Of a stretch of 64,000 nucleotides of DNA, positions 1 through 31,604 are shown in pieces; within the stretch, counting starts at the first letter, position 1, and every line of letters begins with the position of its first letter. A program made the position numbers and the translations under genes. Source of the stretch: Mobula hypostoma. Its lineage: Eukaryota. The stretch is from positions 39,930,001 to 39,994,000 of the forward strand of contig NC_086097.1 of assembly GCF_963921235.1 (NCBI RefSeq), written 5' to 3'. The notes below the pieces were generated by a model. The model searched no databases, had not been told where the DNA came from, and saw nothing but the letters and a program-made list of their open reading frames with translations.

Positions 1-2502
1 TGCTTTGAAGGTGAAACACTGCCAGAATATTAATACAAACCACCTTTAGGTAGACACTACAAAGATTTATTTATAAGAGGAAGTAGAATGAGAGATTTTC
101 GATGTGATGTTTAGAAGATTGGCTACAGTGTAAGTATAGTAAGGCATATTATATATACTTACCCCACTGAATAGATGAGAATCACATAGTTTCCGGCCAG
201 TTCTTTAAACTGCTTTGATCCCAATTGATAATTACAATAATCAGATAGAGATTATCGCTGTAAGCCTAAATTTTGGGAAACAAATGCAAAGCTGGTTGCT
301 GAACTTTAAATTGATTTCAAGATAATATAGTTATTCTATTCTAAACTTAGTTTCAAAAGATAAATTCTTCTCACAACTGATTTTTATTTTTATAAATGTA
401 AACATATAGATGCATCCATTGCCAGCTGGCCTGTTTTGACAAGAAAAATCATACATTTACATTGTTTTTAACTCTCAGCCTTATGTTGTCAAAGAAATAC
501 AATTACTACATCAGAAGCGTCTCTTTTTTATTATTAAGCCTGATTAATTAAAGAGTAGCAGTTATATGGAGAGTTTTCCATCTTTTGGATGTTTCAATGC
601 ACTTCACTAAGTATGAAATAGATGTGTATTATTTAGTTAGAATATTGATGGAAAACACTGCCGCAGAAATTTGTCTGTGGCCATTAGCACTGTTAGTCTA
701 TTGGCTTCCAGTTATACTCATTTCCAAAATCAAACACAATGTCTTTTGTAACTCTTTTGTGTTGTAACTTTGAACCGGGTCAATGTAAAGACAATGAGGC
801 TGGTTGGCATAAAAAATCTTCATTCATCATTGACAAGCAAGGATTCTCCTGAAGACTATCTATAGAGTCTCCCCAAACACAAATGATATCACATTTTGAT
901 ATTCCTTGGAACAAAATTACCAGCAGGTGATTTGACATAATTTCAAAAACTACACTTATTGTTCACTTCAATATTTTGTGTTTGACAAATGATTCCATTG
1001 TATTACATGTTTCTACAATGGGAGCACACGGTAAGTGACAATGCAGCTCTGAATGGTCAAACACCTTTACTGGGACAATACAATTTTGTATGGATGCTCT
1101 AAAAGTCTCTGAGGATAGAGAATGCAGGCACCCAAGATTAGCATTGTGAGGGCTGACTCTCTGGGTACAAAAATGCCTCTAATATTGATAGATAGATAGA
1201 GCGAATATGCCTATGAACATGATTGATGTGTTGAGCATTGAAATAGCTTCGCTGGTCTGGAAGCTGCCTTGAACTCGGTCACAATGGTGAAAAATAGCTT
1301 AGCCAGTATTCGCTGCCTGGTTTGATATAGGTCGGTTAACATGAACCCATTGGCCTTGCATTTGGTTGATACATACAAGAATGTTGCGTGCTTATGTCAT
1401 TTTGCAAACCATATCCTTTGAGCAGCCATCATCCTGTTATAGCCCCATACCCACTTGTCTGTAGACAGCAATGATCATCTAAAAAGCTGTCCTTTAAAAT
1501 TCAAAGGGATTACTTCTTACTTGGTTGAATTAATGCATGGTATTATTCCATCTCTCATGAAATCCTGATGAACACCACAACAAAGTACTGATTTATTAAG
1601 TCAATCATTTCTTCATTTCATTATAATTTCTTCTGCCTCAGCCTCCAAAGGAACCTAATTTACCTCCACTGCTTTCGTTTTTCATTCTTGCAGAGCCTCT
1701 CATAATATTTTGCATTTGCAAAACCTGCCCTGCAGATATTCTGTGAATTTTTCTTCAGTTATATTTTAAATATATGCCCTAATTACTACTTGGTGGAGGT
1801 GATCTATGCTTGTATTATGCTGCCTGGGAGTATCCAGAGTAAGGCCTGGTTGGTACTTATGTAGGAAATCTTTTGGGAATATCAGGTGTAGAAATCTTGT
1901 TGCATGAGGAAATGGGTGATCCAACCACAAGCAGACAAAATCTTCGTAAAATTACACTTGCCAAAAAAAATCCTGAAATGATACACTTTCAAACATTATC
2001 ATCAGCTGAGTTATTCTTTTAAATATTTTTTCTCCCTTTTAAAATCTGCCATATTAATTGTATTTTTGAATCTTCCAGTTGTTCCTGTGGCATCCATTAT
2101 TATCAGTGCTGACACCCACTTGCATTTCTTCATGCATTTTGTCAGTTCCTTCAAAACATCAAGTGCACTGGTATATTTTGTTCTTAATCTTGGTTGTAAT
2201 CACATTTCCAGAACAGGTATTAAATCAAACCATTAATCTCTTTCAGTGCTGTCAATTTATCAACTTTGTTATGTATTTTTGTGTGTTGAAATGAAATGCC
2301 TTTAGTTTTAGTTTTCACACACAAAATGCTGGAGGAACATTTCTCTTGCTAGTTTTAATTTTACCATTTTGCTGATTTGGCATTTATTTCTGCATTCTTT
2401 CTGTTAAACACTGTACTTTCTTGTTACATTATGCATATCCTTGTCTAAATCAAAATTGCTGGTGAACGCAGCAGGCCAGGCAGCATCTTTAGGAAGAGGT
2501 AC

Positions 2503-2538
2503 AGTCGACATTTCAGGCCGAGACCCTTCGTCAGGACT
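2503..2538 (-). ncRNA. Minimal type I hammerhead ribozyme motif in PLE terminal repeat
   Basis: Minus strand reads agtc-CTGACGA-agggtctcggcct-GAAA-tgtc-gact; stem III has one CpG-decay change. Confidence 0.75.
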
Positions 2539-2834
2539 AACTGAAGGAAGAGTTAGTAAGAGATTTGAAAGTGGGAGGGGGAGGGGGAGATCCAAAATGA
2601 TAGGAGAAGACAGGAGGGGGAGGGATGGAGCCAAGAGCTGGACAGGTGATTGGCAAAGGGGATATGAAAGAATCATGGGACAGGAGGTCCGGGGAGAAAG
2701 ACGGGGGGGTGGGTGGAGCCCAGAGGATGGGCAAGGGGTATATTCAGAGGGACAAAGGGAGAAAAAGGAGAGTGAGAGAAAGAATGTGTGTATAAAAGTA
2801 AGTAACAGATGGGGTACGAAGGGGAGGTGGGGCA

Positions 2835-4380
2835 TTAGCGGAAGTTAGAGAAGTCGATGTTCATGCCATCAGGTTGGAGGCTACCCAGACGGAATATAAG
2901 GTGTTGTTCCTCCAACCTGAGTGTGGCTTCATCTTTACAGTAGAGGAGGCCGTAGATAGACATGTCAGAATGGGAATGGGATGTGGAATTAAAATGTGTA
3001 GCCACTGGGAGATCCTGCTTTCTCTGGCAGACAGAGCGTAGGTGTTCAGCAAAGCGGTCTCCCAGTCTGCGTCGGGTCTCACCAATATATAGAAGGCCAC
3101 ATCGGGAGCACCGGACGCAGTATATCACCCCAACCGACTCACAGGTGAAGTGCTGCCTCACCTGGAAGGACTGTCTGGGGCCCTGAATGGTGGTAAGGGA
3201 GGAAGTGTAAGGGCATGTGTAGCACTTGTTCCGCTTACAAGGATAAGTGCCAGGAGGGAGATCAGTGGGGAGGGATGGGGGGGACGAATGGACAAGGGAG
3301 TCGCGTAGGGAGCGATCCCTGCGGAAAGCAGGGAGAGGGGGGAGGGAAAGATGTGCTTAGTGGTGGGATCCCGTTGGAGGTGGTGGAAGTTACGGAGAAT
3401 AATATGTTGGACCCGGAGGCTGGTAGGGTGGTAGGTGAGGACCAGGGGAACCCTATTCCTAGTGGGATGGCGGGAGGATGGAGTGAGAGCAGATGTGCGT
3501 GAAATGGGGGAGATGCGTTTGAGAGCAGAGTTGATGGTGGAGGAAGGGAAGCCCCTTTCTTTAAAAAAGGAAGACATCTCCCTCATCCTAGAATGAAAAG
3601 CCTCATCCTGAGAGCAGATGCGGCGGAGATGGAGGAATTGCGAGAAGGGAATGGCATTTTTGCAAGAGACAGGGTGAGAAGAGGAATAGTCCAGATAGCT
3701 GTGAGAGTCAGTAGGCTTATAGTAGACATCAGTGGATAAGCTGTCTCCAGAGATGGAGACAGGAAGATCTAGAAAGGGGAGGGAGGTGTCGGAAATGGAC
3801 CAGGTAAACTTGAGGGCGGGGTGAAAGTTGGAGGCAAAGTTAATAAAGTCAATGAGCTCAGCATGCGTGCAGGAAGCAGCACCAATGCAGTCATCGATGT
3901 AGCAAAGGAAAAGTGGGGGACAGATACCAGAATAGGCACGGAACATAGATTGTTCCACAAAGCCAACAAAAAGGCAGGCATAGCTCAGACCCATATGGGT
4001 GCCCATAGCTACACCTTTAGTTTGGAGGAAGTGGGAGGAGCCAAAGGAGAAATTGTTAAGAGTAAGGACTAATTCCGCTAGATGGAGCAGAGTGGTGGTA
4101 GAGGGGAACTGACTAGGTCTGGAATCCAAAAAGAAGCGGAGAGCTTTGACGCCTTCCTGATGGGGGATGGAAGTATATAGGGACTGGACATCCATGGTGA
4201 AAATAAAGCGGTGGGGGCCAGGGAACTTAAAATCATTGAAAAGTTTAAGAGCGTGAGAAGTGTCACGAACATAGGTAGGAAGGGATTGAACGGGGTGGGG
4301 GGAATAAAACCGTGTCGAGGTATGCAGAAACGAGTTCGGTGGGGCAGGAGCAAGCTGAGACAATAGGTCTGCCAGGACAG
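2835..4380 (-). pseudogene. 5'-truncated, frameshifted PLE RT + Cys-rich linker + GIY-YIG endonuclease
   Basis: RT motifs TMDVQSLYTSIP, QTKGVAMGT and YIDD, then DVYYKPTDSHSYL. The endonuclease reads VIYCVRCSRCGLLYIGETRRRLGDRFAEH. The Cys-rich linker (CKRNKCYTC...FTC in copy E2) is typical of the Neptune clade. The frame is broken near the G-runs at ~3330 and ~4295. Confidence 0.9.
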
Positions 4381-5453
4381 TATATCACCCCAGCCGACTC
4401 ATTCCAAGATGAGGGAGATGTCCTCCTTTTTTAAAGAAAGGGGCTTTCCTTCCTCCACCATCAACTCTGCTCTCAAACGCATCTCCCCCATTTCACGCAC
4501 ATCTGCTCTCACTCCATCCTCCCGCCACCCCACTAGGAATAGGGTTCCCCTGGTCCTCACCTACCACCCCACCAGCCTCCGGGTCCAAACATATTATTCT
4601 CTGTAACTTCCGCCGCCTCCAACGGGATCCCACCACTAAGCACATCTTTTCCTCCCCCCCCTCAGCTTTCTGCAGGGATCGCTCCCTAAGCGACGCCCTT
4701 GTCCATTCGTCGCTCCCCATCCCTCCCCACTGATCTCCCCCCGGCACTTATCCTTGTAAGTGGAACAAGTGCTACACATGCCCTCACACTTCCTCCCTTA
4801 CCACCATTCAGGGCCCCAGACAGTCCTTCCAGGTGAGGCAACACTTCACCTGTGAGTCGGCTGGGGTGATATACTGCGTCCGGTGCTCCCGATGTGGCCT
4901 TTTATATATTGGCGAGACCTGACGCAGACTGGGAGACCACTTTGCTGAACACCTACGCTCTGTCTGCCAGAGAAAGCAGGATCTCCCAGTGGCCACACAT
5001 TTTAGTTCCACATCCCATTCCCATTCTGACATGTCTATCCACGGCCTCCTCTACTGTAAAGATGAAGCCACACTCAGGTTGGAGGAACAACACCTTATAT
5101 TCCGTCTGGGTAGCCTCCAACCTGATGGCATGAACATCGACTTCTCTAACTTCCGCTAATGCCCCACCTCCCCCTTGTACCCCATCCGTTATTTATTTTT
5201 ATACACACATTCTTTCCCTCTTTCTCCTTTTTCTCCCTCTGTCCCTCTGACTATACCCCTTGCCCATCCTCTGGGTTCCCTCCCCCCCCGTCTTTCTCCC
5301 CAGACCTCCTGTCCCATGATCCTCTCATATTCCCTTTGCCAATCACCTGTCCAGCTCTTGGCTCCATCCCTCCCCCTCCTGTCTTCTCCTATCATTTTGG
5401 ATCTCCCCCTCCCCCTCCCACTTTCAAATCTCTTACTAACTCTTCCTTCAGTT

Positions 5454-5489
5454 AGTCCTGACGAAGGGTCTCGGCCTGAAACGTCAACT
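5454..5489 (+). ncRNA. Minimal type I hammerhead ribozyme motif
   Basis: agtc-CTGACGA-agggtctcggcct-GAAA-cgtc-aact: both conserved core boxes, stem II, palindromic ACGT stem III and a GUC cleavage triplet. Confidence 0.75.
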
Positions 5490-6429
5490 GTACCTCTTCC
5501 TGGAGATGCTGTCTGGCCTGCTGCGTTCACCAGCAACTTTGATGTGTTTTGCTTGAATTTCCAGCATCTGCAGAATTCCTGTTGTTTCCTTGTCTAAATC
5601 ATTAGTTTGCTCTGATGCCAAGCTTCCTTTTTAGATTTCTTACTTTACTTCTCTTCTGACACTATAGTTTTATACCCTATCTTCACAGTCAGTTATTTGA
5701 TTCACCAGTCCATTAAGTTTTGCTAAGTTTAAACGGAATCTGTCTGAAAAGAATAGCACCCATTTTTTACCATGCGCATAAACTAAAGCCATCTGTCACC
5801 CATACCCTTCTCTGAGACTTTCTGATCTGCATGAATAGATGCCAATTTGCATGTAACTCAGTTAGGAATTCAGAGATTATTGCAATGCTGCATTTTAATT
5901 TTTGCCTCAGGATCCCAAATTTCCCAACAGAATTTCAGCCCTGCTTTTTCTTTTGTGATTAGTTCACAAATGTGCCATGACAACTGTATCCTCCCATTTC
6001 ACTCCCATTGCTTCCCTAACCGTAAAGTGCTAGCCTTAACATTAGCACTGTCTCTTATTGCTAAATGTGCTTTTAACACAATCAAAGCAAATGCCTTGCA
6101 GCTAAATGTTGAAATGCTAATAAAGCTATAATTATCTTTTGTTGTTACTTTATTCTACCAGCCCGCCGGCATATTCCATTGCTCGTATTTTAAGAGAGTG
6201 AGATTCATCCATTCTTCTATTTGAAATAAACTACACTTCAAGCTCACTTTGAAAACAGACACAGGAACTTCACAAAAGTTTACAAGACTAGACTTCTTCA
6301 TCTTTCTGTAAAGTTGATGAACCTCAATAAATATAGTTATTAAAATATTTTTCCCTTAACAGCACAATAAATGGGTGTTCAAGATTTGATCTATGAGATA
6401 TTGGTACGTAGGTGATTAATAGTATAGGG

Positions 6430-6980
6430 TGCAGTCACGAGTCCTGATTGAGGGATCTGAAGTGGAAAGAATGAGCAGTTTTAAGTTCCTGGGAGTCAAC
6501 ATCTCTGCGGATTTATCCTGGGCCAACATGTTGAAGGAAGGCACGACGGTGGCTTTATTTAATTTTGAATTTGAGGAGAGTTGGTATATCACCAAAAGCT
6601 GCAGAAGTTGTTAACTCCACCAGCTCCATGAGTACTAGCCTCCCCTGCAATGAGGAAATCTTTCAAAGGCAATGCCTCTGAAAGGTGGCATCCATCTTTA
6701 AAGACCCCAGCACCCAAAACATTCACCCTTCTCATTTCTACCACCAAAGAGGAGGTATAGAGCCTGAAGACACACATCCAATGTTTCAGGAACGGTTTCT
6801 TCTCCTCCGCCATCAGATTTCTGAACAGACAATGAACACTCCCTCAGTGTGTTTTCCTTTCTTTTTGCACGACCTATTTAATTTTTATATATACTTATTA
6901 TAATTTATAGTTTTGTACTGCTGCTACAAAACAAAAAAATTCACGACATATGGCAGAGGTATTAAACCTGATTCTAACCC
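6430..6980 (+). mobile_element. Rex1/Babar-like LINE 3' fragment
   Basis: Encodes EVERMSSFKFLGVNISADLSW and ASIFKDP motifs; similar to other copies in the window. Confidence 0.7.
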
Positions 6981-7745
6981 TGGGACTTAATAACCCCTGA
7001 TAAGGAAAAGGAAAATAACTCTTTATCAGGCCAAATTAGTGATAAAGTGGCTTGACTAAATGTTGGGTGACAACAGGAGCCAATTTGGTTATGATGGTCA
7101 ACTCAAATCCTCTTAGTTTATTGATGAAAATTAACAACTTAGAAGGGTTATGGTAAGACTCGAAACACTGGTTGTGAATGATGGCCTTGCATTCATTGGT
7201 CTTCAGAGTTTGTAGAGTCCCTACTACTTGTATTTCCAATTGTGTTATGAATCTGGAAGGCTAAACCAAGCTGCCGAGAGCATCTATGACCTGCTGGTAC
7301 CAAGTCCTCTTGTGACGCCTTAGGGCCACATGATCAGCCAGAAGAATACCTGCCCGTGAATGGTTGAGCAAACCACTGACAGACGACAAAGGTACACTGC
7401 TGCTTGTCAAATCTGTGGCACTTTTTAAATGCCTTGGAAAGACCCTGACATCTGGAAACTTTCAAAAGCTGTTGAAAGTAAACAGCTAAATCTTTTAAAT
7501 TGACAGTTTTTAAGAATTAAAAGCTACATAAATATAATTTTAATGCATTAAAATACTGTAACAAATACAAGTAATTTTGAAAATGTAATTTATTCTTTCG
7601 TCCTCACTGCTATAAATCTAAGTGAAGTGAATGGGCAATGGAATCCTGTTTCAAGTTTAACCTGATGCAGGATCTGTCAGCAACACCCCTGGTGTCAGGG
7701 CATAGAAGTCTCAGTAATTTCCCACATCCTGCTGGAAGTACTCAG

Positions 7746-7876
7746 AACTGATGCAGGGTTTCGACCTGAAACATTGACAATACCTTTCCTCCCACAGGTG
7801 CCGCTCGATGTGCTGGGTTCCTCCAGCAGATTTACATTTTTGCTCCAAATTCTACCGTCTGTAGTCTCTTGTGTCT
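7746..7876 (+). mobile_element. Degenerate ribozyme-headed PLE mini-insertion
   Basis: ctgatgcagggtttcgacctgaaacattgac followed by a diverged PLE 3' end (gttcctccagcag...ctgtagtctcttgtgt). Confidence 0.55.
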
Positions 7877-8106
7877 CTCAGCAAGTTCACGCTCCACTGC
7901 TGGGCTCTGTGTAGGGCACAGTAGCCAGGTATAGGATGTATATATTCAAAGCCTGCCAGAATCTCTGAGGTACATTCTGTAAGTTCATCATGGAACTATT
8001 GACATCTTTTAGAAAGGGTTGGCCCAATATTACGGTATTTGTTGGTGTTAACACTTCAAAGGCTTATGCTTCCAACTACTCAAACTTATCCCACTCTTAA
8101 AATGAT

Positions 8107-8411
8107 ATAGACAATAGACAATAGGTGCAGGAGTAGGCCCTTCGGCCCTTCGAGCCAGCACCGCCATTCACTGTGATCATGGCTGATCATCCACAATCAG
8201 TATCCAGTTCCTGCCTTATCCCCATAACCTTTGATTCCACTATCTTTAAGAGCTCTATCCATCTCTTTTTTGAAAGCATCCAGAGACCTGGCCTCCACAG
8301 CCTTCTGGGGCAGAGCATTCCATACATCCACCACTCTCTGGGTGAAAAAGTTTTTCCTCAACTCTGTTCTAAATGGCCTACCCCTTATTCTTAAACTGTG
8401 GCCTCTGGTTC
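8107..8411 (-). mobile_element. CR1 LINE 3' end
   Basis: Tail of (atagaca) repeats and a CR1 3'UTR similar to 51560 and 60612. atgatat occurs at both flanks. Confidence 0.75.
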
Positions 8412-8455
8412 ATGATATGTAGTCTTATTTATTGATCATGATACATACTTTGAAA

Positions 8456-9307
8456 TGTTACGAGAATACACATAAAATTAAGATGTTTGCTGGCCTGGGC
8501 TAGCATCAGTGGCATCAGCAGTTGGTCTGCCACCTGCCCTCAGGGGAAGGAGAGATAAGGAACAATGGAGCAGCGTCTGGAGATGTGTAATGAAGGGATG
8601 TGGGAGGAAGAGCTGTCTGGAGCGGCTCCCCCCTTTGAACCCTGAACTGTTTGAAGTGATGGACAGGCGATACCCCAGCAGGGGGATAAAAAGGGACAGG
8701 TTCGCTAAGACAGACACACGCCACCCGAGGTAACGAGACCCTGGAAGCGGTACGCTTCTCACGAGTGGGTGGAAAGGTACGATCAGCGGGAACCCGGTGT
8801 GTGTCCGCCCTTGCCTGGGTGCCGGGTTCACTGCAGAGGATCGACTGCATCTGGAGGAGGGGTCACAGTCGGTGACCTCAGGTGACATCACCAAGGACCC
8901 GCCCAAAAGCTGTTTGTGAGCCATCTCGCTGGTCTGTGAGCCATCTTGCTGGTCTGTGAGTGAAGCCGTTCTGAATGATGAGTTGTTCCTATTCTATCTC
9001 TCTCTTCCCCCACGTTGTCCACCGCCATGGCAACGATTACTGCGAACTGAACTACTAAACTGGACTGAACTTTGAGTCATTTTGAAATTGGTCATTTACC
9101 CCTAGACAACGATAGAGCTTGATTGATGCTGTTATCTTAATTCTGTGCACATGTGTGTTTATCATCACTGAACTGTTGCATTTATTATCCTTTCGATTAC
9201 TGTGTTGCTTGTTTCTTTAATAAAACTTTCTTAGTTCTAGTACTCCAGACTCCAACTGAGTGATCCATTTCTGCTGGTTTGGCAACCCAGTTACGGGGTA
9301 CGTAACA
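8456..9307 (+). mobile_element. Solo LTR (Gypsy or ERV type), 852 bp
   Basis: Termini tgttacg...cgtaaca (TG..CA, 7-bp inverted), 4-bp TSD gaaa at 8452-8455 and 9308-9311, and AATAAA at 9219. Confidence 0.88.
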
Positions 9308-9739
9308 GAAAGAAAGAGTTAAGAGGGATATGGGTCAGGTCCTTTGGCCTAAAACGTACCACCTAGCTTGGTGGGCATCATGGTCAACATGGACAAGTTG
9401 GGTCAAAGGACCTGTTTCATATTCAGATTCATTTATCACCTATACATGTCAACAAACAGTGAAATATGTCGCTTGCATTAACAACCAACACACACAAGGA
9501 TGTGCTGGGGGCAGTCACAAGTGTTGCCTCACATTCTGTCGCCAACATAGCATACCCATAATGTTCATCAGAGCAACACAGATGATAACAAACAACAGAA
9601 CAACAGTTTTTCAACTCCAGGATCAGGACTCGTGTCTCCATTCTCCAGACTGTTGTCTGCTGTCATGCCATCCTGTTACCGTAAGACTCTAAAATAATGT
9701 TCAATCTTGACTGTATCAGGTTGGTGTCTTACCTGGACT

Positions 9740-12879: not shown

Positions 12880-15010
12880 AAATCAGGGGGCATGAAAAAA
12901 ATAATTCTCCAGCGACTGGAGTCATACCTTACACATAAGGGAGGTGAGGTGACTGTTGTTGGGGGTCAATCATTGAATCCCCAGATAATCAGTGCAGAAG
13001 CTCCTTAGGGTTGTGTCTGAGACCCAGCCATCTTCAGCTGCTTCCTCAATGATCTTCCTTCTATTAAAAGGTCAGAAGCTGCGATATTTTCTGATGATTA
13101 CTCATGTTTATTTCATTCAAAATTCTTCACCAAATGAAACAACTCCTTCTTGCACGCAGTGAGAGCCATCTCAATGGTCAAGCAGGGCCAATGGACTAAT
13201 TGGGAGAGCCTGGAAAAGAGGAAACTCAGCTGGCGTGACATCTGGGAGATGGAGGGATCTTGGCTATGTTTTGTCATCAGAGCCACTTATGACCTCCTAC
13301 TCACATCCCAGAACCTGAAAGACCCCACTTGCTCTCTTTGTCAAGCACCTGGATCACTAAGGCACATTTTAACAGGATGCACCATGAGCCTCACCCAGGG
13401 GCAGTACACTTGGCAGCATAACCAAGTTCTCAGGCAGCTGGCATCAATCTTGGAACAGAGGCGAATCACCACAAATGCTCTCCCACAAACATTGGCAGGA
13501 AATGTCCTCATCACACGATTTGTACCAGCAGGCCAACCTCCAGAACACCATATAACATCAAAAGATGTAAGCATTCTGCAGGTTGCATGCGATTGGAAAA
13601 TGGATGTGGACCTGGAAAAAAGCTTGTGTTTCCCCAAGACATTGCGGCTACAATACTCCGGCCAGACATAGTCCTGTGGTCCACAAAAGCCAAGCTGGCA
13701 TATGTTGTGGAATTGACAATAACATGGGAAGATGGTTTCAAAGAAGCTTGTGAGAGGAAAAAGACCAAGTACTCTGAACTGGCAATGGAAGCTGCCCAGA
13801 ATGGCTGGAAGACCAAGATTTTCCCTGTAGAATTGGGATGCAGGGGATTCGTTGCTACATCTACGACCAGTCTATTGAGGAAGATGGGGGTGAGGGGTCA
13901 CTCCCTCCAACAAGCAATCAAGTCCTTGTCAAATGCAGCAGAAGAAAGCAGCAATTGGATTTGGATTAAAAGGAACGACAACAACTGGGCTGCAGGAGGG
14001 TATGGAACTGAGGGGGGTGTATCTGGGACGCCAGGTAGCACCATTGAGCCCTCTGGAGATGTTGTGGGCTTGTCAACAAAACGTCAAAGAAGGAGGGTGT
14101 CCACCTGATGACCCTGATGACGTACCTACCCTCTCTCCTTGTCACGACTTCAAGCCCACTGCCAACATCGAGAGTGCCGACTTACCATAGGGATTGAAAC
14201 ATAAAGTCCTAGTAGCTCTACTGACACTGTTCAAGCATGGGGTGATATTTGACAAGCAATGCTAATGACACAAAGTGCTAGATAAAGACCAGGTTCAAAT
14301 CAGAAAGTCTAACCATTTTGACAATCAGAGACATTACTTCAGCAAATCCTGGGTTAACCTCTGACCAGAAACTCATCATAACTACCATGCAGAGTTCAGA
14401 GGCTAGGTGTCTGATTGTAACTCACCTCCTGATACACCCTCGTCTTTCCACTATCTACAAAATATCAAGAAGGGAGCATGATGGAATTCTCCTCATTTGC
14501 CTGGATAATGTACTTCTCAGGAATTTGACAACACCTGGAGTAAAGAAGTCAGCTTGCGTGGCAACCCTTTCACCATCCTAAGCATTCATTCCATTCAACA
14601 TTGGTGCACAGTTAATACCAGCTAGAAATTGCATGAATCACCTCCCAAATACACAATGTCTGCCATCAAGAGTATCAGCGGCAGCAGGCAACTAGGAACA
14701 CTATTGGCTGCAGATTTTCCATCGAGTTGCGTATGATCCTGACTTGGAAATGCAGTATATAACCAACCTCTCATCATCACTGGGTCCAATTCCTGGAACT
14801 CCTTCCACAACATGGGAGTTGCTTCTTTTAAACTCTCTCTCCCTCTATGCAATCCAATGTCTCCTCGGGAACTGTGGTGAGCAAAATGTGCCGACTGCCC
14901 CTGCCATGCAAGTGCCTTCACCAGAATAATGGCAGAGGTTCAAAATGGCTCACCACCATCTTCCCGTAGGTACTTGGGATGGAAAAGAAATGCTGACCTC
15001 AGCAGTAGCT
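12880..15010 (+). mobile_element. Old CR1-group LINE fragment interrupted by a Hero element
   Basis: A degenerate RT core (QG/PxIFSCFLNDLP/ADD-like) at ~13000-13105; LINE-like sequence resumes after 14225. Confidence 0.6.
13152..14222 (+). mobile_element. Hero-like (R2 superfamily, restriction-like endonuclease) LINE 3' fragment
   Basis: CSLC...HILTGC zinc knuckle, QHNQVL, RPDIVLWS...VVELTITWE...RKKTKY (PD-(D/E)xK-type RLE). One frameshift. Confidence 0.85.
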
Positions 15011-15611: not shown

Positions 15612-15830
15612 ACCATTTTGTGTGTCAGTTCCTGAGGAGATATTGGATTGTGCAGAGGGAAAGAGAGTTTAAAAGAAGCAGACGGGAGTAGTCAGCACAT
15701 TTTGTGTACCACAGTTCCCGAGGAGACATTGGATTGAAAAGAGGTTGAAACAGTTTAAAAGAAGCAAGCAGGGTCAGACAGTACATTTTACCCACTACAG
15801 TTCCTGAGGAGACATTAGATTGCATATAAT
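15612..15830 (+). repeat. 86-bp tandem monomers immediately upstream of CR1 ORF1
   Basis: cagttcc(t/c)gaggaga(t/c)att(g/a)gattg at 15626, 15712 and 15798. Confidence 0.85.
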
Positions 15831-21590: not shown

Positions 21591-22469
21591 GTGATCACAC
21601 TTCAGTTTTGTTGCCTGTCAAAACTGCCAAGTTCCTTCATTCCTTTAACAGGCAAGGACATTAAAAAACTTTTAAAATTAAGGAAACAATTAAGCAATGT
21701 GAAAACACACAGGAAATGGTTAAAACACAATTAACTAATTTAAAACACTACAGCAAACACAATGTTAAAATATATTTAATTTCTCAACTTTCTTCCTCAA
21801 ACTTCTATAGTCTTATGGTCTTAATGCTAAAAAATAGATTAGCAAGATTTTTAAACTTGTATCTTGCACTTTGCCTTGTACAATTTACCTTGCTCTTTGC
21901 CAAGTGCGTGATAACAATCGATTTTAAAGGGATTATTTGACATCTGATTAAATGATTTCTGCTTGACATAATGTTAATGTCATGTCATTTTTGAAATTTA
22001 ATTTTCACATTATGTTTCTAGGGTCAATTTTAATTTATTGTATGTTAATAATTATGTTCATAATTATGCTGTCTCTGCTTGAATTAATTCTGGAAGTTTG
22101 GAAGGAAATTTGACCTTAAAACTACAAAAAAAGCATTACAAAATCTGAAGGTGTTTTTTTCTTGAATAGTGGTGACCATTTTAATCTTGAGCTTGTTTCA
22201 GTACACTTTCCAGAGGAAAATTTCTTTCGTATTAAGCTGATTGACCTGCCAACAAATGACTTCCCACAGAAAGTGGGTGGTCAGTAGTTACCCATCAGAA
22301 GGAAGTCAGGTGGTCGAGATTGCCATGGGCCCTGAGCCTTGCATTAGGTGCTTAGCATAAGACAGGGAAAGATCCCTGTTCTTCAGTATAGGATCAACAA
22401 TGGACATTGTTAATTTGAACTAATTTAAACTCCCTTCAGACTTATTTTAGGCTGAGATTTCAAATATTT

Positions 22470-22995
22470 ACTGTTCAAAACTCAAAGTAAATTTATTATC
22501 AAAGTACACATATGTCAGTATATGCTACCCTGAGATTTGTTTTCTTGCGAGCATTCACATTAAGTACAAGAAACACAATAGAATCAGAGAAAGACTGCAT
22601 CCAGCAGGATGGGCAAGCAATCATGTGCAAACGACAACAAACAGCGCAAATGCAAAAAGAAAGAAAAAATATTAAATAAACAAACAATAAATATTGAGAA
22701 CATGAGATGAGGATGTCTTGAAAGTGAGTCCATAGATTGAGAGAACATTTCAGCGATGGTGCGAGTGAAGTTGAGCAAAGTTATCCCCACTGGTTCAAGA
22801 GCCTGATGGTCAGAGGGGTAATAATTTTCCCTGAACCTGGTGGAGGGGGTCCTGAGGCTCTTGAACCTTCCTCCTTTTGGCAGCAGCAAGAAGAGAGCAT
22901 GCCCTGGAAGTTGGGTCTTCTTGATAATAGATGTTGCTTTCGTACAACAACACTCCATGTAGACGTGCTCAATAGTGGAGAGGGCTTTACTGCTT
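22470..22995 (-). mobile_element. Rex1/Babar-like LINE 3' fragment
   Basis: KATSIIK...PGHALFLLLP.G.RF..LRT motif; same 3'UTR as 9740-10260. Confidence 0.8.
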
Positions 22996-24552
22996 GAGGG
23001 GACCCACCAGGGTCTGTAACTGATCAGTCTGATGATTAGGAAGCTTGAGTCTCAGTATCAGCGGGGAGTTTGGGTCTACCTGTTCTAGCATAGATGTCAT
23101 TCTCTATAGCTAGTTTGAGCTTGCCTACATTTCTGTATTATTTTAAATAGCAGAACCTTCTGATTAGCAAGGCAGTTAAGAGCAATATATTCTAAATGGT
23201 TATGGCAATATTTTCTAAGTGGTAAAGGACAGAGAAAGTAGGTATCTTTATCCAGGCTCAAATAGCTCTCAACTGTAATGAAGATAAAGAGAGATTTTTT
23301 CTTTATTCCTTCTTAACCCACCTCCATTCCCTAAACAAAATACAAAGCTACGGTATTGTAGCTCTAGGCAGAACATTGAAGTTGTAGCCATGACAAATGG
23401 GATTGGGTTTTATTGAGGATCACAGATACTTTATCATCTTGTCCACATCCTGGCATCATTAGGGCATTGCTATATACTTTGGGTGTAATCACCAAGCAGA
23501 ATATTTGTAGCTGAAATGAACTAGGAGACACACACAGACTGGAGATGGATGAGAACCTTTAGGGACAATGCTATTTGACTGTTATTGATTTTGGTTTGCT
23601 GTGAGCAACGTTTGCTGTCGAACCAAAGCTCTGACTGAACTCTAACAAGGAGCTCACAGCATCAAGCTGGTGAGTATCAATCACTTCCCCTGAATCTAGC
23701 ATTGGCAATTTAATGCATTGAGTGATCATTCTGCCCTTCGGACAGTTTAGACCAACAAGCATTTAGAGAGTCCAGGTAATTGGAAAAAAGTTGGTATCAG
23801 ACAAATGTCAAACAATTTTCATCTGTATTTATTCAAAGTAGAGGAGGTGGTGGAATCACATACAATAAATACATTTGGGAAATACACTATTTAGACAGGT
23901 ACTTGAATAGGGAAGAAGGGTACGGAAGTAATGTGGATTAGTATAGATGGTCAAAAAGGTTGCTATGGATGAGGTAGGCTGAAGAACTTGTTTCTGTGCT
24001 GCACAAGTCGAAGACTCTATGATACATTGTTTTTAAACATTGTAACATTACTTCTATGCTATTATATTCTGTGCCCTAACTAATGAAGATGTGCCCCCCG
24101 TTCCACAATAATCACGAGGCCCTAGCCTTCATTCTGTTTGGCTTGGCCTTATTAGTCCTCTTAAAATTCATCACCTCACATTTATCAGGATCAAATTCTG
24201 TCATTACTTCTGTCAATTTTACCAACTGATCGATACTTTCCTGTAGCATAAGATGAGCTTCCTCATAATTAACATGACTACTGATTTTTATGTCATCTGT
24301 AAATTTATTAACCATTACCTCCTACATTCACATCCAGGTCATTAATCTATACTTCAAATTCTGGTCACAGTCTCTGATTACAAAAACATCTCTTGACTAT
24401 AAGCATATAACTGAACTAGTTTCAGATCTGTTTACCCAACTTGACCTAAATTGCAAACAACAGGAATTCTGCAGATGCTGGAAATTCAAGCAACATACAT
24501 CAAAGTTGCTGGTGAACGCAGCAGGCCAAGCAGCATCTATAGGAAGAGGCGC

Positions 24553-24588
24553 AGTCGACGTTTCAGGCCGAGACCCTTCGTCAGGACT
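24553..24588 (-). ncRNA. Minimal type I hammerhead ribozyme motif (intact)
   Basis: Minus strand reads agtc-CTGACGA-agggtctcggcct-GAAA-cgtc-gact. Confidence 0.8.
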
Positions 24589-26422
24589 AACTGAAGGAAG
24601 AGTGAGTAAGGGATTTGAAAGCTGGAGGGGGAGGGGGAGATGCAAAATGATAGGAGAAGACAGGAGGGGGAGGGATAGAGCCGAGAGCTGGACAGGTGAT
24701 AGGCAAAAGGGGATACAAGAGGATCATGGGACAGGAGGTCCGGGAAGAAAGACGGGGGGGGGCGACCCAGAGGATGGGCAAGAGGTATATTCAGAGGGAC
24801 AGAGGGAGAAAAAGGAGAGTGAGAGAAAGAATGTGTGCATAAAAATGAGTAACAGATGGGGTACGAGGGGGAGGTGGGGCCTAGCGGAAGTTAGAGAAGT
24901 CAATGTTCATGCCATCAGGTTGGAGGCTACCCAGACGGAATATAAGGTGTTGTTCCTCCAACCTGAGTGTGGCTTCATCTTTACAGTAGAGGAGGCCGTG
25001 GATAGACATGTCAGAATGGGAATGGGATGTGGAATTAAAATGTGTGGCCACTGGGAGATCCTGCTTTCTCTGGCGGACAGAGCGTAGATGTTCAGCAAAG
25101 CGGTCTCCCGGTCTGCGTCGGGTCTCGCCAATATATAAAAGGCCACATCGGGAGCACCGGACACAGTATATCACCCCAGTCGACTCACAGGTGAAGTGAT
25201 GCCTCACCTGGAAGGACTGTTTGGGGCCCTGAATGGTGGTAAGGGAGGAAGTGTAAGGGCATGTGTAGCACTTGTTCCGCTTACACGGATAAGTGCCAGG
25301 AGGGAGATCAGTGGGGAGGGATGGGGGGGACGAATGGACAAGGGAGTTGTGTAGGGAGCGATCCCTGCGGAATGCAGAGAGAGGGGGGGAGGGAAAGATG
25401 TGCTTAGTGGTGGGATCCCGTTGGAGGTGGCGGAAGTTACGGAGAATAATATGTTGGACCCGGAGGCTGGTGGGGTGGTAGGTGAGGACCAGGGGAACCC
25501 TATTCCTAGTGGGGTGGTGGGAGGATGGAGTGAGAGCAGATGTGCGTGAAATGGGGGAGATGCGTTTAAGAGCAGAGTTGATAGTGGAGGAAGGGAAGCC
25601 CCTTTCTTTAAAAAATGAAGACATCTCCCTCGTCCTAGAATGAAAAGCCTCATCCTGAGAGCAGATGCGGCGGAGACGGAGGAATTGCGAGAAGGGGATG
25701 GCGTTTTTGCAAGAGACAGGGTGAGAAGAGGAATAGTCCAGATAGCTGTGAGAGTCAGTAGGCTTATAGTAGACATTCAGGGCCCCAAACAGTCCTTCCA
25801 GGTGAGGCAACACTTCACCTGTGAGTCGACTGGGGTGATATACTGTGTCCGGTGCTCCCGATGTGGCCTTTTATATATTGGCGAGACCCGACGCAGACTG
25901 GGAGACCGCTTTGCTGAACATCTACGCTCTGTCCGCCAGAGAAAGCAGGATCTCCCAGTGGCCACACATTTTAATTCCACATCCCATTCCCATTCTGATA
26001 TGTCTATCCACGGCCTCCTCTACTGTAAAGATGAAGCCACACTCAGGTTGGAGGAACAACACCTTATATTCCGTCTGGGTAGCCTCCAACCTGATGGCAT
26101 GAACATTGACTTCTCTAACTTCCGCTAGGCCCCACCTCCCCCTCGTACCCCATCTGTTACTCATTTTTATGCACACATTCTTTCTCTCACTCTCCTTTTT
26201 CTCCCTCTGTCCCTCTGAATATACCTCTTGCCCATCCTCTGGGTCCACCCCCCCCCCGTCTTTCTTCCCGGACCTCCTGTCCCATGATCCTCTCGTATCC
26301 CCTTTTGCCTATCACCTGTCCAGCTCTCGGCTCTATCCCTCCCCCTCCTGTCTTCTCCTATCATTTTGCATCTCCCCCTCCCCCTCCAGCTTTCAAATCC
26401 CTTACTCACTCTTCCTTCAGTT

Positions 26423-26458
26423 AGTCCTGACGAAGGGTCTTGGCCTGAAACGTCGACT
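26423..26458 (+). ncRNA. Minimal type I hammerhead ribozyme motif (intact)
   Basis: agtc-CTGACGA-agggtcttggcct-GAAA-cgtc-gact; predicted cut after C26454. Confidence 0.8.
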
Positions 26459-27624
26459 GCGCCTCTTCCTATAGATGCTGCTTGGCCTGCTGCGTTCACC
26501 AGCAACTTTGATGTATGTTGCTTGACCTAAATTGCAGTTCTTTTGGACCGTACTCCCATGTGGGAACCTATTAAAGGCCCTTATTGATATCCATGTAGAC
26601 TATTTCATCAAAAAATTTGTTTCTTCTTCAAACAATTCAATTTTACTTTCAGACTGGATCCTGCCCCGATAAAGATATGCTGAGTATCTACGATTAAACC
26701 TGCCTTTCCTAGTACGCATTAGTTCTGACCCTCAGAATTTTCCCAATAACTTATCTACTACTGTTATTAAATTCACGGATCTGCAAATAATGACTTTAAC
26801 CCTATTGCTCAGTTTCAACAAATATATTAGAATTGTTGTCCTTTCATCATCTGGCACCTCACCTGTGTAAAATGTAAAGATTTAACATATTTCAGTAAGG
26901 TCTCAGCAAATTCCTCCTTTCCTTTCTATACCAGCAGGGGCTACGTCTGTGACTAGAGTCCATGACAAAAGTGGTTTGGACCCAGCTACTGGAGTATCCG
27001 AAGCTAGGATGAAGACACAGAATAGAACTGGATTGAGAACTAAGCACAAAACAAAACGCTAGATGATATTTCTGGTTGGGCTTACAACTGAGCACTGAGA
27101 TTCCATTCAGGTGCTCTTTAAGTACTCAATTCTTGGTGCTCAAAACATGATTGCTAATTTGCGGGACATTTCTGAACCCTTAAAGGGACCACAACAGCTA
27201 TCCATATTCTGGAGAGTTAGAGTGTCTAACTCCAGAAGCTGGCATGTTTGGGTGTGCCTAGTAACATCTTATCTGAACTTCAGCACTAATCCACCTTTAA
27301 GCCTACTATGACATCTAATACCTCCTCCTTTTTAATGATAGCATATTCTACAACTGAAGTGTCCACCTACTGGATTCTCAAATTGCAATGTCTCTCTTCT
27401 TAGGCCAACTACAGATAAGAAATATCCATTTAAGACTCTCTCTACATCCTCTGACTCTATGCACTTATTACCACTTTGATGCTTACCTGGTTATGCTCTT
27501 GCTCTTAATATACTGTACATATAAGATACTCAAGGACTGTCCTTAGTCTCGTCCATCAGATATGACTCATGGATAATCTTTGCCCTTCTAATATAAGTAC
27601 CTTCCTACACTTTCTATATCCTTG

Positions 27625-28175
27625 TCATAGAGTCATAGGGTCTTACTGACTCGAATCAGGCCCTTCAGCCCAGCTTGTCTATGCCAATTGCGTCACTCAA
27701 CCAAGCTAGACCCATCTGCTTCCATTTGGTCCGTAGCCTTCTATATCTTTCTTATCCAGATACTTATCTAGATGGCTTTTAATTGTTGCTGATGCATTTG
27801 CCTCAATTGCTATTTCTGGCAGCTCCGCACCAGCATGAAGAAGCTGCTTCTGATGTCTCTTGAAAATCTTTCGTCTCTTATCTTAAAACCTATACCATCT
27901 TATTTTTGCACCTTCCTCCTGGGGAAAAGACTGCCTCTGGATTTCATGATTTTATATACCTGTGTCTGGTCAACCCTAAATCTCCTAGTTCTAGGGAATA
28001 AAGTCCTTGTCTATGGAACCTCACATTGTGATTCAGGCCCCCAAGCCCGGGAAACACCCTGGTAAATCCTTTCTCACTCTTTCTCGTTTAGAAACATTTT
28101 CCCTATAACAAGATGACCAAAACTGTACACAGTACACCAAACATGGCCTCACTAACATCTTATATAATAGCAATG
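27625..28175 (-). mobile_element. CR1 3' fragment
   Basis: [18 protein letters not shown] motif and a catagagtcatag tail. Confidence 0.75.
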
Positions 28176-28189
28176 GATGCTTCAAGCAG

Positions 28190-29275
28190 TCTTCAATTAC
28201 AGAAGTGCCCAAGAGCAACACGATTACCTCCATCAATGACTATCATCCAGTAGCACTTACACCCACAGTGCTGAAGTGCTTAGAGAGGTTGATGATGAAA
28301 CATATCAACTCCTGACTGAGGAGAAATCTGGACCCACTCCAATTTGCCTATCTTCACAGCAAGTCAACAGCAGATGCAATGTCATTGCTCTTCACTCAAC
28401 CCTGGAACATCGAACAGTGAAGAAGCATACTTCAGGATGCTATTCATTGACTTTGGCATTCAGTATTATCATCCACTCAAAAGTAATCAATGATCTCCAA
28501 GACCTTGGCCTCAATACCTCCTGGTGCAACTGGATCCTCGATTTCCTCACTTGCAGACCCTAATCAGTTCGGATTGGCAACAACACGGCCACAATCACCA
28601 TCTTCACAGGTGCACCACAAGGCTGCGTGCTTAACCCCCGCTCTACTTGCTTTACACTTACGTCTGTGTGGCTAAACACAGCTCCAACGCCATTTTTAAA
28701 TTTGCTGACAACACCACTGTTGTTGGCCGAATGAAAGGTGGCGATGAGTCGGGATAGAGGGTGATTGAAATTGTGTGCCACAACAGCATCCTCTCATTCA
28801 ATGTCAGCAAAACCAAAGAGCAGATCATTGGCTTCAGGATGAAGAAACCAGAGGTCTATGAGCATCGAGAGAGATCAGAAGTGGACAGAGTAAGCAACTT
28901 TATATTCCTCAGTGTTATCATTTCAGAGGATGTGTCCTGGGTCCAGCACATAACTGCCATTGCCTCTACTTTCTCAGAAGTTTGCGAAGATTTGGCATGT
29001 CATCTAAAATTCATTCTCACAGCCCATGGACTCACTTTTAAAGACTCTTCATCTCATATTCTCAATATTTATTGCTTATTTATTATTATTTTCTTTCTTT
29101 GTATTTTCACAGTTTTTTGTCTTTTGCACATTGGTTGTTTGTCTTGTTCTGTGTGATTTTTTTGTTGATTCTATTGTGATTTTTTGTATTTACTATGAAT
29201 GACTACAAGAAAACGAATATTTGGTGACGTATACAGCATTTACGTTGTTAATAAGTTTACTTTGAACTTTGAACA
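28190..29275 (+). mobile_element. Rex1/Babar-like LINE RT + 3'UTR fragment
   Basis: [25 protein letters not shown] and FADN motifs; ends in tttgaactttgaac. Confidence 0.8.
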
Positions 29276-29399
29276 AAACTTCCCAGCTACAATTCCTCAG
29301 GATCCTACCATTTATTGTCTAAGTCTTATCCTTTCTTCCATGCTCCACTGTCTTTTCATAATAGATAACTTGTCCTTCAGCTCTTTACTTGTTTTGCCT

Positions 29400-30760
29400 A
29401 TCACATCACAGCTTATCATTCGTCTATCCTCCAACCATCAACCTTCCCCTCACCTGGTCCCAGCTATCACCTGTCAGCTTGTACTCCTTCACTCCCCCAC
29501 CTTCATATTCTGCCTCCTGCCCCCATCCTTTCCTGTCCTGATGATGTCTCGGACTAAAACGCTGACTATTTATTCCCCTCCATCAATGCGGCCTAACATG
29601 TAGATTTCATCCAGCATTTTGTGCGTATTGCTTACCAGCATCTGCAGGTTTATACATTCTGCCCCGGTTTGATCTATAATACCTTGCACCTATCTGAATT
29701 GAAACCCTTTTGTCAATCCTCAGCCCACATATCCAGCCAGTGCTCCCGGTACAGCCTTCTCCACATCGGTGAGACCAGGCGCAGTTTGGGGATAATTTCA
29801 TCAAATAAATTTGCTCTGTTTGCCACAACAGCTAGGTGGCCAACCATGTTAATTCCACTTCCTATTCCCACACTGACATATCTATCCACAGTCTCCATCA
29901 CTGCCATGTTGAAGCTTGATGCAGCTTGGAGAAGAAACACCTCATATTTTGCCTTGGCAGTCTGCAACCTGACAGCATGAACATTGATTTTTCTAAATTC
30001 TAGTAAAGACTCCCTTCTGTTATCCCTCTTCCTGCACTCCACCCTGTTTTCTGTTATCCCTGTGGCCCTGCTTCCCCTTTCCTTTCCCCTTCCGATCCTC
30101 ATAACCTTAAAACCTGCCTTTCGCCTTTTGGCTCCTACCTCCTTCCTTTTGCTGTCCTCTCCTATAAGATTCCTTCTTCTTCAGCCCTTTGCTTTTCCCA
30201 TCTGTCACCTATCAGCTTCTCACATCATCCCAGCTTCCCTTCCTGACCCTCCCACACTCTCCTTCCTTCCCCCTCCAACCCAGACTAACGTATCATGGGC
30301 CATACCCCTCCCACCTTCTCCCACCTAACCTGAACTCACCTGGGTGCCCTGGTAGCAAGGCAGTGAGCATGATGCTATTTCATCTTAGAGCAGTAGAGTA
30401 GGGGGTTCAATTCTGGCATCATCCTGAAGGCTAATTGATCATTATAAATTGTTCCGTGATTAGGTTAAGGTTAAATCGGGGCTGTTGGGCGTTGCTGGGG
30501 CAGCAACTTTCGAAGAGCAGGTAAGGTCTATTCTGTGTTATATCACTAAATAATTAAATAAATAATAATCACCTGCCAGCTTGTGATTTCCCCTTCCCCT
30601 ACTCTTTCATTCTGGTGTCTGCCCCCTTCTTTTCCAGTTCTGCTGAAGGCTCTCAGACTGAAATGTTGACTGTTCATTTTCCTTCACAGATACTGCCTGA
30701 ACCACTGACTTTCTCCAGCATTTTGTGGGTGTTGAGTCAGATCCCCATGTCGTCTCTCAG
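29400..30760 (+). mobile_element. Old PLE in direct partial-tandem arrangement (pLTR, GIY-YIG, pLTR), interrupted by a SINE
   Basis: Degenerate hammerhead motifs at ~29535 and ~30635 flank a GIY-YIG remnant (QCSRYSLLHIGETRRSLG). Confidence 0.7.
30343..30568 (+). mobile_element. Internally deleted tRNA-derived SINE (same family as 47683)
   Basis: B-box-like ggttcaattc, 3' part matching 47683-47800, a (taaa) tail, and tcacctg on both sides. Confidence 0.6.
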
Positions 30761-31313
30761 TTCGGTATTATTCCCCATCGTAATCACCCGACCCAGAAAT
30801 AAGTCCTTCTCACGCCAAGTGAATAACCCGTGTCTCAGCCGAGGATTCCAGTCCTGGGGCGCTGCTTGCTGAAATCAAGGCTTTCCATGCACCAAAATGG
30901 AGTCCAAGAGCTTGCGTTGGTGCTCTGAATAAGCTGAACATTAAAGCTTCCAGGTGAGTTGTTGATGAGTATCTACCTGAAGGCTGACCTGAAGTACAAG
31001 GATAGTCATGAATTCACATTGTGAAATGAAGTCTTTCCCATCACACAACAATGAAAGCAGCATATTAATAAGGCATGTTTAAACCTGTGACACTGCTTGG
31101 AAATGTGTACTAATTACACTGTGTTGGACTTGTCTGGGAGCTTGAATAGAGACCCTGTAAATGGCTGAGGCTAAGTACATTAATTTTTAGATGCATTGAT
31201 AATGATAATATTCCAGGTCATGTTATGCCTTGCTAGTCGTCAGTTTGTATCTCTAATTCAATGCAAGAATCTGTATGCATGCTAAGGTTGGAAAAAAAAA
31301 CAGGATCCAATAC

Positions 31314-31483
31314 CAGGAGAAAATGTGCGGATGCTGGAAATCCAAAGCAACGCACACAAAATGCTGGAGGAACTCAGCAGGCCGGGCTGTATCTATGGAA
31401 AAATGTAAACAGTCAATGTTTCAGGCCACTGATTGTTCACTCTGTTCCATAGATGCTCCTGACTTACATTTTGGGTTTGTTGC
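31314..31483. mobile_element. Miniature inverted PLE-end insertion E3
   Basis: Minus arm with tail (31314-31428) plus a tail-less plus arm (~31430-31483). TSD acaggat(c/t)caatac at 31300-31313 and 31484-31497. Confidence 0.8.
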
Positions 31484-31604
31484 ACAGGATTCAATACTTT
31501 TATACCATTTATCAATTGAACTTATAGCTTCAGCTTTTCAAAATCTGAATATGAGAAGTGAAGATTCTTCTCCCTTTCTAGTTAAAACTAAGAAAGAAGA
31601 GGCA

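What the first reader, a model, noticed from the sequence alone, without database searches (positions are those of the whole stretch)
2438..31497. Recurrent symmetric insertion mode: three PLE insertions with two outward-facing 3' ends inside a single TSD
Seen: E1 (3.1 kb), E2 (2.1 kb) and E3 (170 bp) share one plan: TSD, 3' end, arm, junction, arm, 3' end, TSD. The TSDs are 15, 16 and 14 bp. In each, exactly one arm keeps the ~30-43 nt tail. Established: Penelope-like elements form inverted pseudo-LTRs and carry a short tail, and L1 twin priming copies non-overlapping parts of one RNA. Inference: here both arms copy the same 3' region, so both nicked target strands appear to have primed near the RNA 3' end. 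That needs two template copies (an RNA dimer or a tandem/circular RNA). The dimer-type hammerhead in every arm offers a way to hold two RNAs together.
Basis: partly seen in the sequence, partly recalled or inferred. Interest (0 to 1): 0.75.

Follow-up and report, generated by a model that had tools for sequence, protein, structure and literature searches.

The report
Head-to-head Penelope insertions, one-sided tail
These are real but already-described insertions of a Penelope-like jumping gene in a ray-type fish: two shortened copies sit head to head inside one target duplication with a short tail on one side only, and their uneven arms suggest that both cut DNA strands likely primed copying separately.

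Summary
E1, E2 and E3 are head-to-head pairs of 5'-truncated Penelope-like element (PLE) copies inside single target-site duplications (TSDs) of 15, 16 and 14 bp, each with one tailed arm. I found two more small, weaker pairs (E4, E5); 5 of 9 TSD-bounded copies are two-armed, and 5 of 5 pairs have one tail. This layout is published (Arkhipova 2013; Craig 2021), and this scan noted it before elsewhere in this genome. What the window adds is mechanistic. E1's arms are not nested either way and no junction is a palindrome, so simple fold-back fails; priming from both nicked strands fits (about 0.75) and agrees with in vitro work on a lizard PLE (Frangieh 2024). Two RNA molecules are not required: one transcript with two start sites about 35 nt apart would also explain the one-tail rule. 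A full hammerhead is in 4 of 6 arms, not all, and was dispensable in vitro. Template number is unresolved. No whole genome was available and no listed contig bridged an inversion junction. Interest 0.3.

The parts
2438..2452 (.). E1 left TSD (15 bp)
   Evidence: exact match to 5587-5601
2453..4380 (-). E1 left arm: 5'-truncated PLE (RT, thumb, CX4CXXC linker, GIY-YIG, 3' UTR, hammerhead), no tail; the longer arm; 4-nt microhomology with the TSD at its 3' end
   Evidence: collinear family sequence diverges at 4380 (loose ends)
4378..4401 (-). E1 junction: 24-nt exact copy of element-internal sequence (4853-4876, inverted); 18 nt net, with 3-nt microhomology at each side
4399..5586 (+). E1 right arm: 5'-truncated PLE with hammerhead and tail; the shorter arm
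5587..5601 (.). E1 right TSD
24440..24455 (.). E2 left TSD (16 bp)
24456..25776 (-). E2 left arm, tailed, the longer arm; open thumb-linker-EN frame of 297 aa
25774..26520 (+). E2 right arm, no tail, nested in the left arm; 3-nt microhomology at the junction, up to 5 nt with the TSD
26521..26536 (.). E2 right TSD
31300..31313 (.). E3 left TSD (14 bp, 1 mismatch)
31314..31428 (-). E3 left arm, tailed, older subfamily, begins inside hammerhead stem II
31429..31483 (+). E3 right arm, no tail, decayed, with a deletion of about 15 nt
   Evidence: nhmmer E=0.00066
31484..31497 (.). E3 right TSD
7709..7888 (.). E4 (not in the finding): TSD 13 bp with 2 mismatches; left arm 7722-7747 (-) without tail; right arm 7742-7875 (+) tailed
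   Evidence: TSD null 57 of 20000; left-arm score reached at 12 of 127952 positions
2303..2362 (.). E5 (candidate, not in the finding): TSD 13 bp with 1 mismatch (low complexity); left arm 2316-2338 (-) 23 nt without tail; right arm only about 10 nt of the tail end; arms do not overlap

Best explanation
These are head-to-head pairs of 5'-truncated copies of an endonuclease-bearing Penelope-like retroelement inside single target duplications, likely made by twin priming, in which each of the two nicked target strands would prime its own cDNA. Shown: TSDs, outward-facing 3' ends, one tail per pair, non-nested arms in E1, microhomology or a short templated piece at the junctions. Inferred: (1) the GIY-YIG nuclease cuts both strands 13-16 nt apart; (2) two RT subunits start at the element's two start sites about 35 nt apart, one giving the tailed arm and one the tail-less arm; (3) both sites likely lie on one transcript, which is either read twice (the trailing RT displacing the first cDNA from an RNA that no RNase H domain destroys) or carries tandem copies; (4) both cDNAs stop early and, being the same sense, are joined end to end by microhomology, sometimes with a short templated insert; (5) repair fills in. 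Single-armed copies would be the same event with one arm lost or never made. Twin priming of any kind: about 0.75; this one-transcript form: about 0.5.
For: E1 arms are mutually non-nested, which fold-back cannot give. Candidate E5 has non-overlapping arms, one at each start site, like classic L1 twin priming. 5 of 5 pairs have one tail. Tail-less ends also occur in single copies with TSDs (c50k, c51k), and TSD lengths are alike in pairs (13-16) and singles (10-18). Junction stems are 3-5 bp, within the random range. Arms group by insertion: 24 of 732 columns split E1 from E2 and 0 show cross patterns. 9 of 9 listed E1-right-only letters are rare in the family (other letter 93-99.8% in run X1), so most arm divergence is later decay. 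The tail-less arms of E1 and E2 share 4-5 nt with the TSD, as L1 secondary priming does. A lizard PLE nicks and extends both strands, starts RT at two sites flanking the tail, and is predicted to be a dimer on a multi-copy mRNA. Pfam shows no RNase H in two full-length relatives.
Against: n is small, and E4 and E5 are short and were found after the fact. E2, E3 and E4 are nested and fit fold-back equally. A few E1 sites hint at non-identical templates: at 4902 both letters are common in the family (45% in X1), and at two 3' UTR sites the right arm matches a relative's consensus while the left arm matches E2 (table 7, read by eye; one site is CpG-type). The sister pattern of arms also follows from two RNAs of one active subfamily. 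Displacement of cDNA from RNA by a PLE RT is untested. The in vitro element is Poseidon clade; this one has the Neptune/Nematis-type linker. Only 40 of 350 variant rows and 15 of 1870 joints were shown.
Confidence: 0.5

Rival explanations
1. Twin priming with two separate RNA molecules, held by a protein dimer or by the dimer-type hammerhead.
For: Fits non-nested arms. Hints of non-identical templates in E1 (site 4902 and two UTR sites). E3's arms are very unlike each other. L1 makes opposite-orientation insertions from two transcripts (PMC11702581). PLE hammerheads are built to work as dimers (PMC4209133), and cofolding pairs two copies through a short palindrome (-35.9 vs -29.2 kcal/mol). 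An earlier scan note (e1-7808845, unchecked) reports two templates in one pair.
Against: Needs an extra asymmetry to give one tail in 5 of 5. Most E1 arm differences are private: 9 of 9 listed right-arm letters are rare, and most of 17 amino-acid differences are rare among 13 relatives. E2 arms differ at only 6 of 748 sites. Hammerhead catalytic mutants did not affect insertion in vitro; the active dimer fold is unfavoured in this sequence.
Confidence: 0.25
2. Fold-back: one cDNA starts at the tail, turns on itself at a microhomology, copies itself backwards and is joined to the target short of the tail.
For: E2, E3 and E4 are nested with the tailed arm longer; E2 arms are 99.2% identical with a 3-nt junction microhomology. 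The 18-nt E1 junction piece shows that brief templated synthesis occurs at these ends.
Against: Cannot give E1 (the longer arm lacks the tail that the shorter arm has) or candidate E5 (no overlap). Tail-less ends coincide with an end also used by single copies.
Confidence: 0.12
3. The inverted structure forms before integration, by self-priming on an antisense template, and the nuclease resolves the intermediate unevenly, leaving the tail on one side (Arkhipova 2013; Craig 2021).
For: Published model; explains the one-sided tail; palindromes were seen at rotifer junctions.
Against: No palindrome at 6 of 6 junction points tested here. Later in vitro work maps the tail to RT start sites on sense RNA.
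Confidence: 0.1
4. Assembly artefact, or two successive insertions at one site.
For: Inverted repeats trouble assemblers; no listed contig bridges a central junction.
Against: Arms differ by 0.8% and 4.6% with transition bias. One outer TSD and no TSD remnant at the E1 or E2 junction (longest inner match 6-7 nt, elsewhere). A contig of a related organism runs from E1's tail into the right flank, though with only about 23 letters on the element side, under the tool's 31-letter bar.
Confidence: 0.03

Closest known systems
Canonical endonuclease-bearing PLE insertion unit, e.g. Pen2a_Av of Adineta vaga (PMC3846280; passages and Discussion read) and Fig. 2 of Craig et al. 2021 (PMC8557442; passages)
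   Same: Inverted 5'-truncated copy at the 5' end, head-to-head, one TSD around the whole unit, 30-40 bp tail at only one end.
   Different: TSDs 13-16 bp against 8-10 bp in the rotifer examples; no junction palindromes; both arms can exceed 0.7 kb; no direct upstream pLTR or full ORF in these copies.
PAc (Poseidon of Anolis carolinensis) in vitro system (PMC11167929; main text and part of methods read; held supplements searched)
   Same: RT plus C-terminal GIY-YIG, hammerhead near the end, two RT start sites bounding the tail, both strands nicked and extended.
   Different: The parts I read do not link both-strand extension to inverted insertions ('inverted' occurs once, for a blocked oligo). 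PAc is Penelope/Poseidon clade; this element has a CX4CXXC linker of the Neptune/Nematis type.
L1 twin priming and two-transcript opposite-orientation L1 insertions (PMC11702581; passages and one section)
   Same: Intact TSD, second primer helped by microhomology, junction closed by end-joining, occasional templated middle piece.
   Different: L1 arms from one RNA are nearly non-overlapping (1-10 bp deletions or duplications); here both arms repeat 0.05-1.15 kb of the same 3' region and start about 35 nt apart.
Minimal dimer-type hammerheads of PLE pLTRs (PMC4209133; passages)
   Same: CUGANGA core, stem II, GAAAC, palindromic minimal helix III.
   Different: No activity tested here; Rfam gives no hit at gathering score.

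Membership tests
Endonuclease-bearing Penelope-like elements | RT followed by C-terminal GIY-YIG endonuclease in one ORF | tested here: met
   GIY-YIG E=2.3e-05 (above cut-off); RVT_1 only E=0.001 (below cut-off) in E1 left arm; 48% identity over 328 aa to an 893-aa RT+GIY-YIG protein. The E1 frame is broken between the domains, and only the 3' part of the ORF is in the window.
Endonuclease-bearing Penelope-like elements | CCHH motif with two cysteines between GIY and YIG | tested here: met
   CxxC between the GVIY and LYIG motifs, followed by histidines, in the translations; definition
Endonuclease-bearing Penelope-like elements | Hammerhead motif in the pLTR region | tested here: met
   By eye: core, stem I, stem II and palindromic minimal stem III in 4 of 6 arms. 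Rfam: 0 hits at gathering score. Cleavage untested.
Endonuclease-bearing Penelope-like elements | Optional 30-40 bp tail, inverted truncated 5' copy, TSD | tested here: met
Endonuclease-bearing Penelope-like elements | Full-length source in partial tandem with direct pLTRs | not testable with these tools
   No full-length copy in the window; no whole genome held
Penelope/Poseidon clade | No CX2-5CxxC zinc finger in the RT-EN linker | tested here: not met
   CX4CXXC is present in the linker; definition
Neptune or Nematis clade | CX2-5CxxC linker plus C-terminal EN | tested here: met
Neptune or Nematis clade | RT phylogeny with named reference elements | not tested
   No named reference sequences were returned by the searches
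L1-type twin-primed insertion | Two arms copy non-overlapping parts of one RNA | tested here: not met
   Arms overlap by about 1150 bp (E1) and 750 bp (E2); only candidate E5 is non-overlapping
L1-type twin-primed insertion | Intact TSD, microhomology at second priming site and at the junction | tested here: met
   L1 data
Self-primed palindromic PLE junction (Arkhipova 2013) | Palindrome at the inverted junction | tested here: not met
   Best stems 3-5 bp at 6 junction points; random sites mostly give 4-5 bp

The most novel reading that the evidence does not exclude
The normal PLE integration route is symmetric: a dimeric protein primes both nicked strands at two start sites about 35 nt apart and reads the same RNA twice, the trailing RT stripping off the first cDNA. 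That one step would explain the inverted copy, the one-sided tail and single-armed copies together. It can be tested now in the existing lizard in vitro system.
Probability: 0.3. Interest if true: 0.6.

Novelty: new member of a known kind. Interest (0 to 1): 0.3.

Why it matters
How PLEs make their tandem/inverted insertions and one-sided tail is named as an open question in print. These copies are dead fragments of a known layout, so the discovery value is low. But non-nested arms exclude simple fold-back for E1 and point to both-strand priming, which links a 2024 in vitro result to the genomic pattern. I did not find that link stated in four searches aimed at it. [quoted passage not shown] For annotation, such pairs should be counted as one insertion.

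Tried and rejected
No whole genome is held, so the genome-wide tally could not be made. Pattern scans for family copies found 0 loci in viral contigs, metagenome contigs and prokaryote genomes. Rfam: 0 hits. No RNA holder on record was listed; this says nothing on expression. It showed 40 of 350 variant rows, 15 of 1870 joints and 32 of about 462,000 pieces; none of the pieces shown bridges the E1 junction, no empty site was seen, and the best holder may be the window's own source. The 3610/4399 opposite-strand joint there is the ordinary collinear element seen against an inverted reference, not an inversion. The amino-acid test of E1's arm differences against 13 relatives was inconclusive. 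TSD searches failed for 4 of 13 units (c21k, c29.6k, c30.7k, c58k). 13 nhmmer hits below the inclusion threshold were left out of the unit count; one is E4's left arm, and I looked at seven others and saw no convincing pair. Single-strand folds of the 3' ends were no more stable than shuffles (z -0.5 to 0.0). The supplements of PMC11167929 held as text had no hits for three terms; its supplementary figures were not visible and may bear on inverted copies. No complex prediction was run: the predicted dimer surface is mostly N-terminal and absent from the window.
Full report
OBSERVATION. Self-comparison of the window shows two large inverted pairs, 2449-3596 against 5543-4399 (95%) and 24486-25235 against 26525-25774 (99%). 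Exact direct repeats bound them: 15 bp at 2438/5587 and 16 bp at 24440/26521. E3 is bounded by 14 bp with one mismatch at 31300/31484. In 2984 random pairs of 40-nt zones no exact 15-mer and no 14-mer with one mismatch occurred. Insert lengths are 3134, 2065 and 170 bp. E3's right arm is weak by eye but scores E=0.00066 with a profile built from ten other 3' ends. One arm per element runs about 30-47 nt beyond the other. The description is right, except that a whole hammerhead motif is in 4 of 6 arms.

WHAT IT IS. The arms encode a decayed RT (Pfam E=0.001, below cut-off) and a GIY-YIG nuclease (E=2.3e-05), 48% identical over 328 aa to a full-length RT plus GIY-YIG protein. The closest named protein is from Mobula hypostoma (94%), then Hypanus sabinus, so this is a ray PLE family. 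It has the CCHH motif and a CX4CXXC linker, which by the definitions in Craig et al. points to Neptune or Nematis and away from Penelope/Poseidon; no tree was built. The family is very abundant: about 300,000 contig pieces of one run were laid on 2.8 kb.

CENSUS OF THE WINDOW. The profile gives 16 hits above the inclusion threshold (ten match by construction), which form 13 insertion units. Nine have a TSD; five of these are two-armed and four single-armed (c36k and c63k tailed, c50k and c51k tail-less). The two extra pairs are small. E4 (7709-7888) has a 13-bp TSD with two mismatches (null 57 of 20000), a 26-nt tail-less left arm and a tailed right arm. E5 (2303-2362) has a low-complexity 13-bp TSD, a 23-nt tail-less arm identical to c36k, and about 10 nt matching the tail end; that 9-mer occurs three times in the window, and the other two lie in the tails of c21k and c36k. 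E5 is a candidate only.

JUNCTIONS. E2 joins by a 3-nt microhomology. E1 has a 24-nt exact inverted copy of element-internal sequence (4378-4401 = 4853-4876), 18 nt net with 3 shared bases on each side; family contigs leave the reference at 4380 and 4399, which shows that the piece is foreign to the collinear element. This reads as short templated synthesis before end-joining (inference). No junction has a palindrome above background, and no TSD remnant lies at the E1 or E2 junction. The tail-less ends of E1 and E2 share 4 and up to 5 nt with the TSD; E3's shares none.

ARM RELATIONSHIPS. E1's tail-less arm reaches 784 columns further 5' than its tailed arm, so neither contains the other. E2, E3 and E4 are nested with the tailed arm longer. 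In 732 shared columns, 24 split E1 from E2, 30 are private to one E1 arm, 5 to one E2 arm, 2 are other patterns and none crosses. E1's arms differ by 4.6% (14 CpG-type, 38 other) and E2's by 0.8%. Nine listed E1-right-only letters are rare in the family (93-99.8% other letter in X1), so most of the difference arose after insertion. A related organism differs at 13 of 810 flank letters, and one of its contigs runs from the tail into the flank, with about 23 letters on the element side, below the tool's bar; E1 may predate that split. Against one template: at 4902 both letters are common (45% in X1), and at two UTR sites the right arm matches a relative's consensus while the left arm matches E2 (read by eye; one is CpG-type). 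These few sites could be recurrent mutation. Template number is unresolved.

MECHANISM. With a staggered cut, each 3' end points into the insertion; if each primes an antisense cDNA, the product is a head-to-head pair with outward 3' ends inside one TSD, and the two cDNAs, being the same sense, must be end-joined. This follows from geometry. Fold-back of one cDNA predicts a nested tail-less arm and fails for E1 and E5. In vitro, the lizard element PAc nicks and extends both strands, starts RT at two sites whose interval is the tail, is predicted to dimerise, is proposed to use a multi-copy mRNA, and does not need hammerhead cleavage (PMC11167929). I therefore put twin priming at about 0.75. 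It need not: two start sites 35 nt apart on one RNA can each be used once, which predicts one tail per pair. The trailing RT would have to displace the first cDNA. Pfam finds no RNase H in two full-length relatives, and R2 RT displaces annealed strands (passage in PMC13000458), but this is untested for PLEs. A tandem transcript is the other one-molecule route. Two separate RNAs remain possible (0.25) and have an L1 precedent. The hammerhead clamp is the weakest step: here the core is predicted to be sequestered in another hairpin (-14.6 against -5.4 kcal/mol), and the active dimer fold computes at -10.5 against -29.2 for two monomers, although a 4-bp palindromic contact is favourable. These energies ignore tertiary contacts and protein.

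COMPARISON WITH WHAT IS KNOWN. Arkhipova et al. 2013 describe an adjacent inverted pLTR, a 9-10 bp TSD around the whole unit and a 31-bp tail optionally on one inverted pLTR, call the arrangement typical, and propose antisense self-priming. Craig et al. 2021 describe an inverted 5'-truncated copy and a tail often at one end only, and call the mechanism open. So the plan is known. Earlier notes of this scan report it several times in this genome; these are unchecked AI notes and are not counted as support. Papers seen: PMC11167929 parts 1-2 of 4, term passages and held supplements; PMC3846280 passages and Discussion; PMC8557442, PMC4209133, PMC13000458 and 10.64898/2026.07.22.740005 passages; PMC11702581 passages and one section; all others as search listings only.

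VERDICT. Real and non-random; a new member of a known kind. Interest 0.3. The boldest open reading, one RNA read twice by a dimer as the normal PLE route, has probability about 0.3 and would merit about 0.6, since it can be tested directly in an existing in vitro system.

Noticed in passing
window 49903, 50960, 63035 (-), 7742-7747, 21456: Short copies end 5' at nearly the same place, within about 6 nt upstream of the hammerhead core: three TSD-bounded singles (c50k, c51k, c63k), E4's right arm, and probably c21k (no TSD). This may mark the transcript's 5' end (priming at the first start site would give a 100-145 nt cDNA) or an RT stop at the ribozyme; short matches to the TSD also lie there.
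   Followed up: partly
window 2303-2362: Candidate 34-bp two-armed insert (E5) with non-overlapping arms, 76 bp left of E1.
   Followed up: yes
window 7709-7888: Fourth two-armed insert (E4) of an older, different subfamily.
   Followed up: yes
window 29737-30734: Old PLE copy apparently split by another repeat at about 30400-30560 (match to 47729-47799); no TSD found.
   Followed up: no
window 13138-14223 and 53440-54375: Two 91% identical fragments with open frames that look like the restriction-like nuclease end of a HERO/NeSL-type non-LTR element (label recalled; Pfam gave no hit).
   Followed up: partly
proteins P0052 and P0056: NCBI gene models named 'divergent protein kinase domain 1C isoform X2' (Hypanus) and 'chitinase domain-containing protein 1 isoform X1' (Mobula) contain this PLE's protein sequence at 75-85% identity: exonised copies or annotation errors.
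   Followed up: no
window 14819-14904 and 15614-15826; 62728-62815 and 63914-64000: Inverted repeat pairs unrelated to the PLE 3' end, possibly ends of DNA transposons.
   Followed up: no
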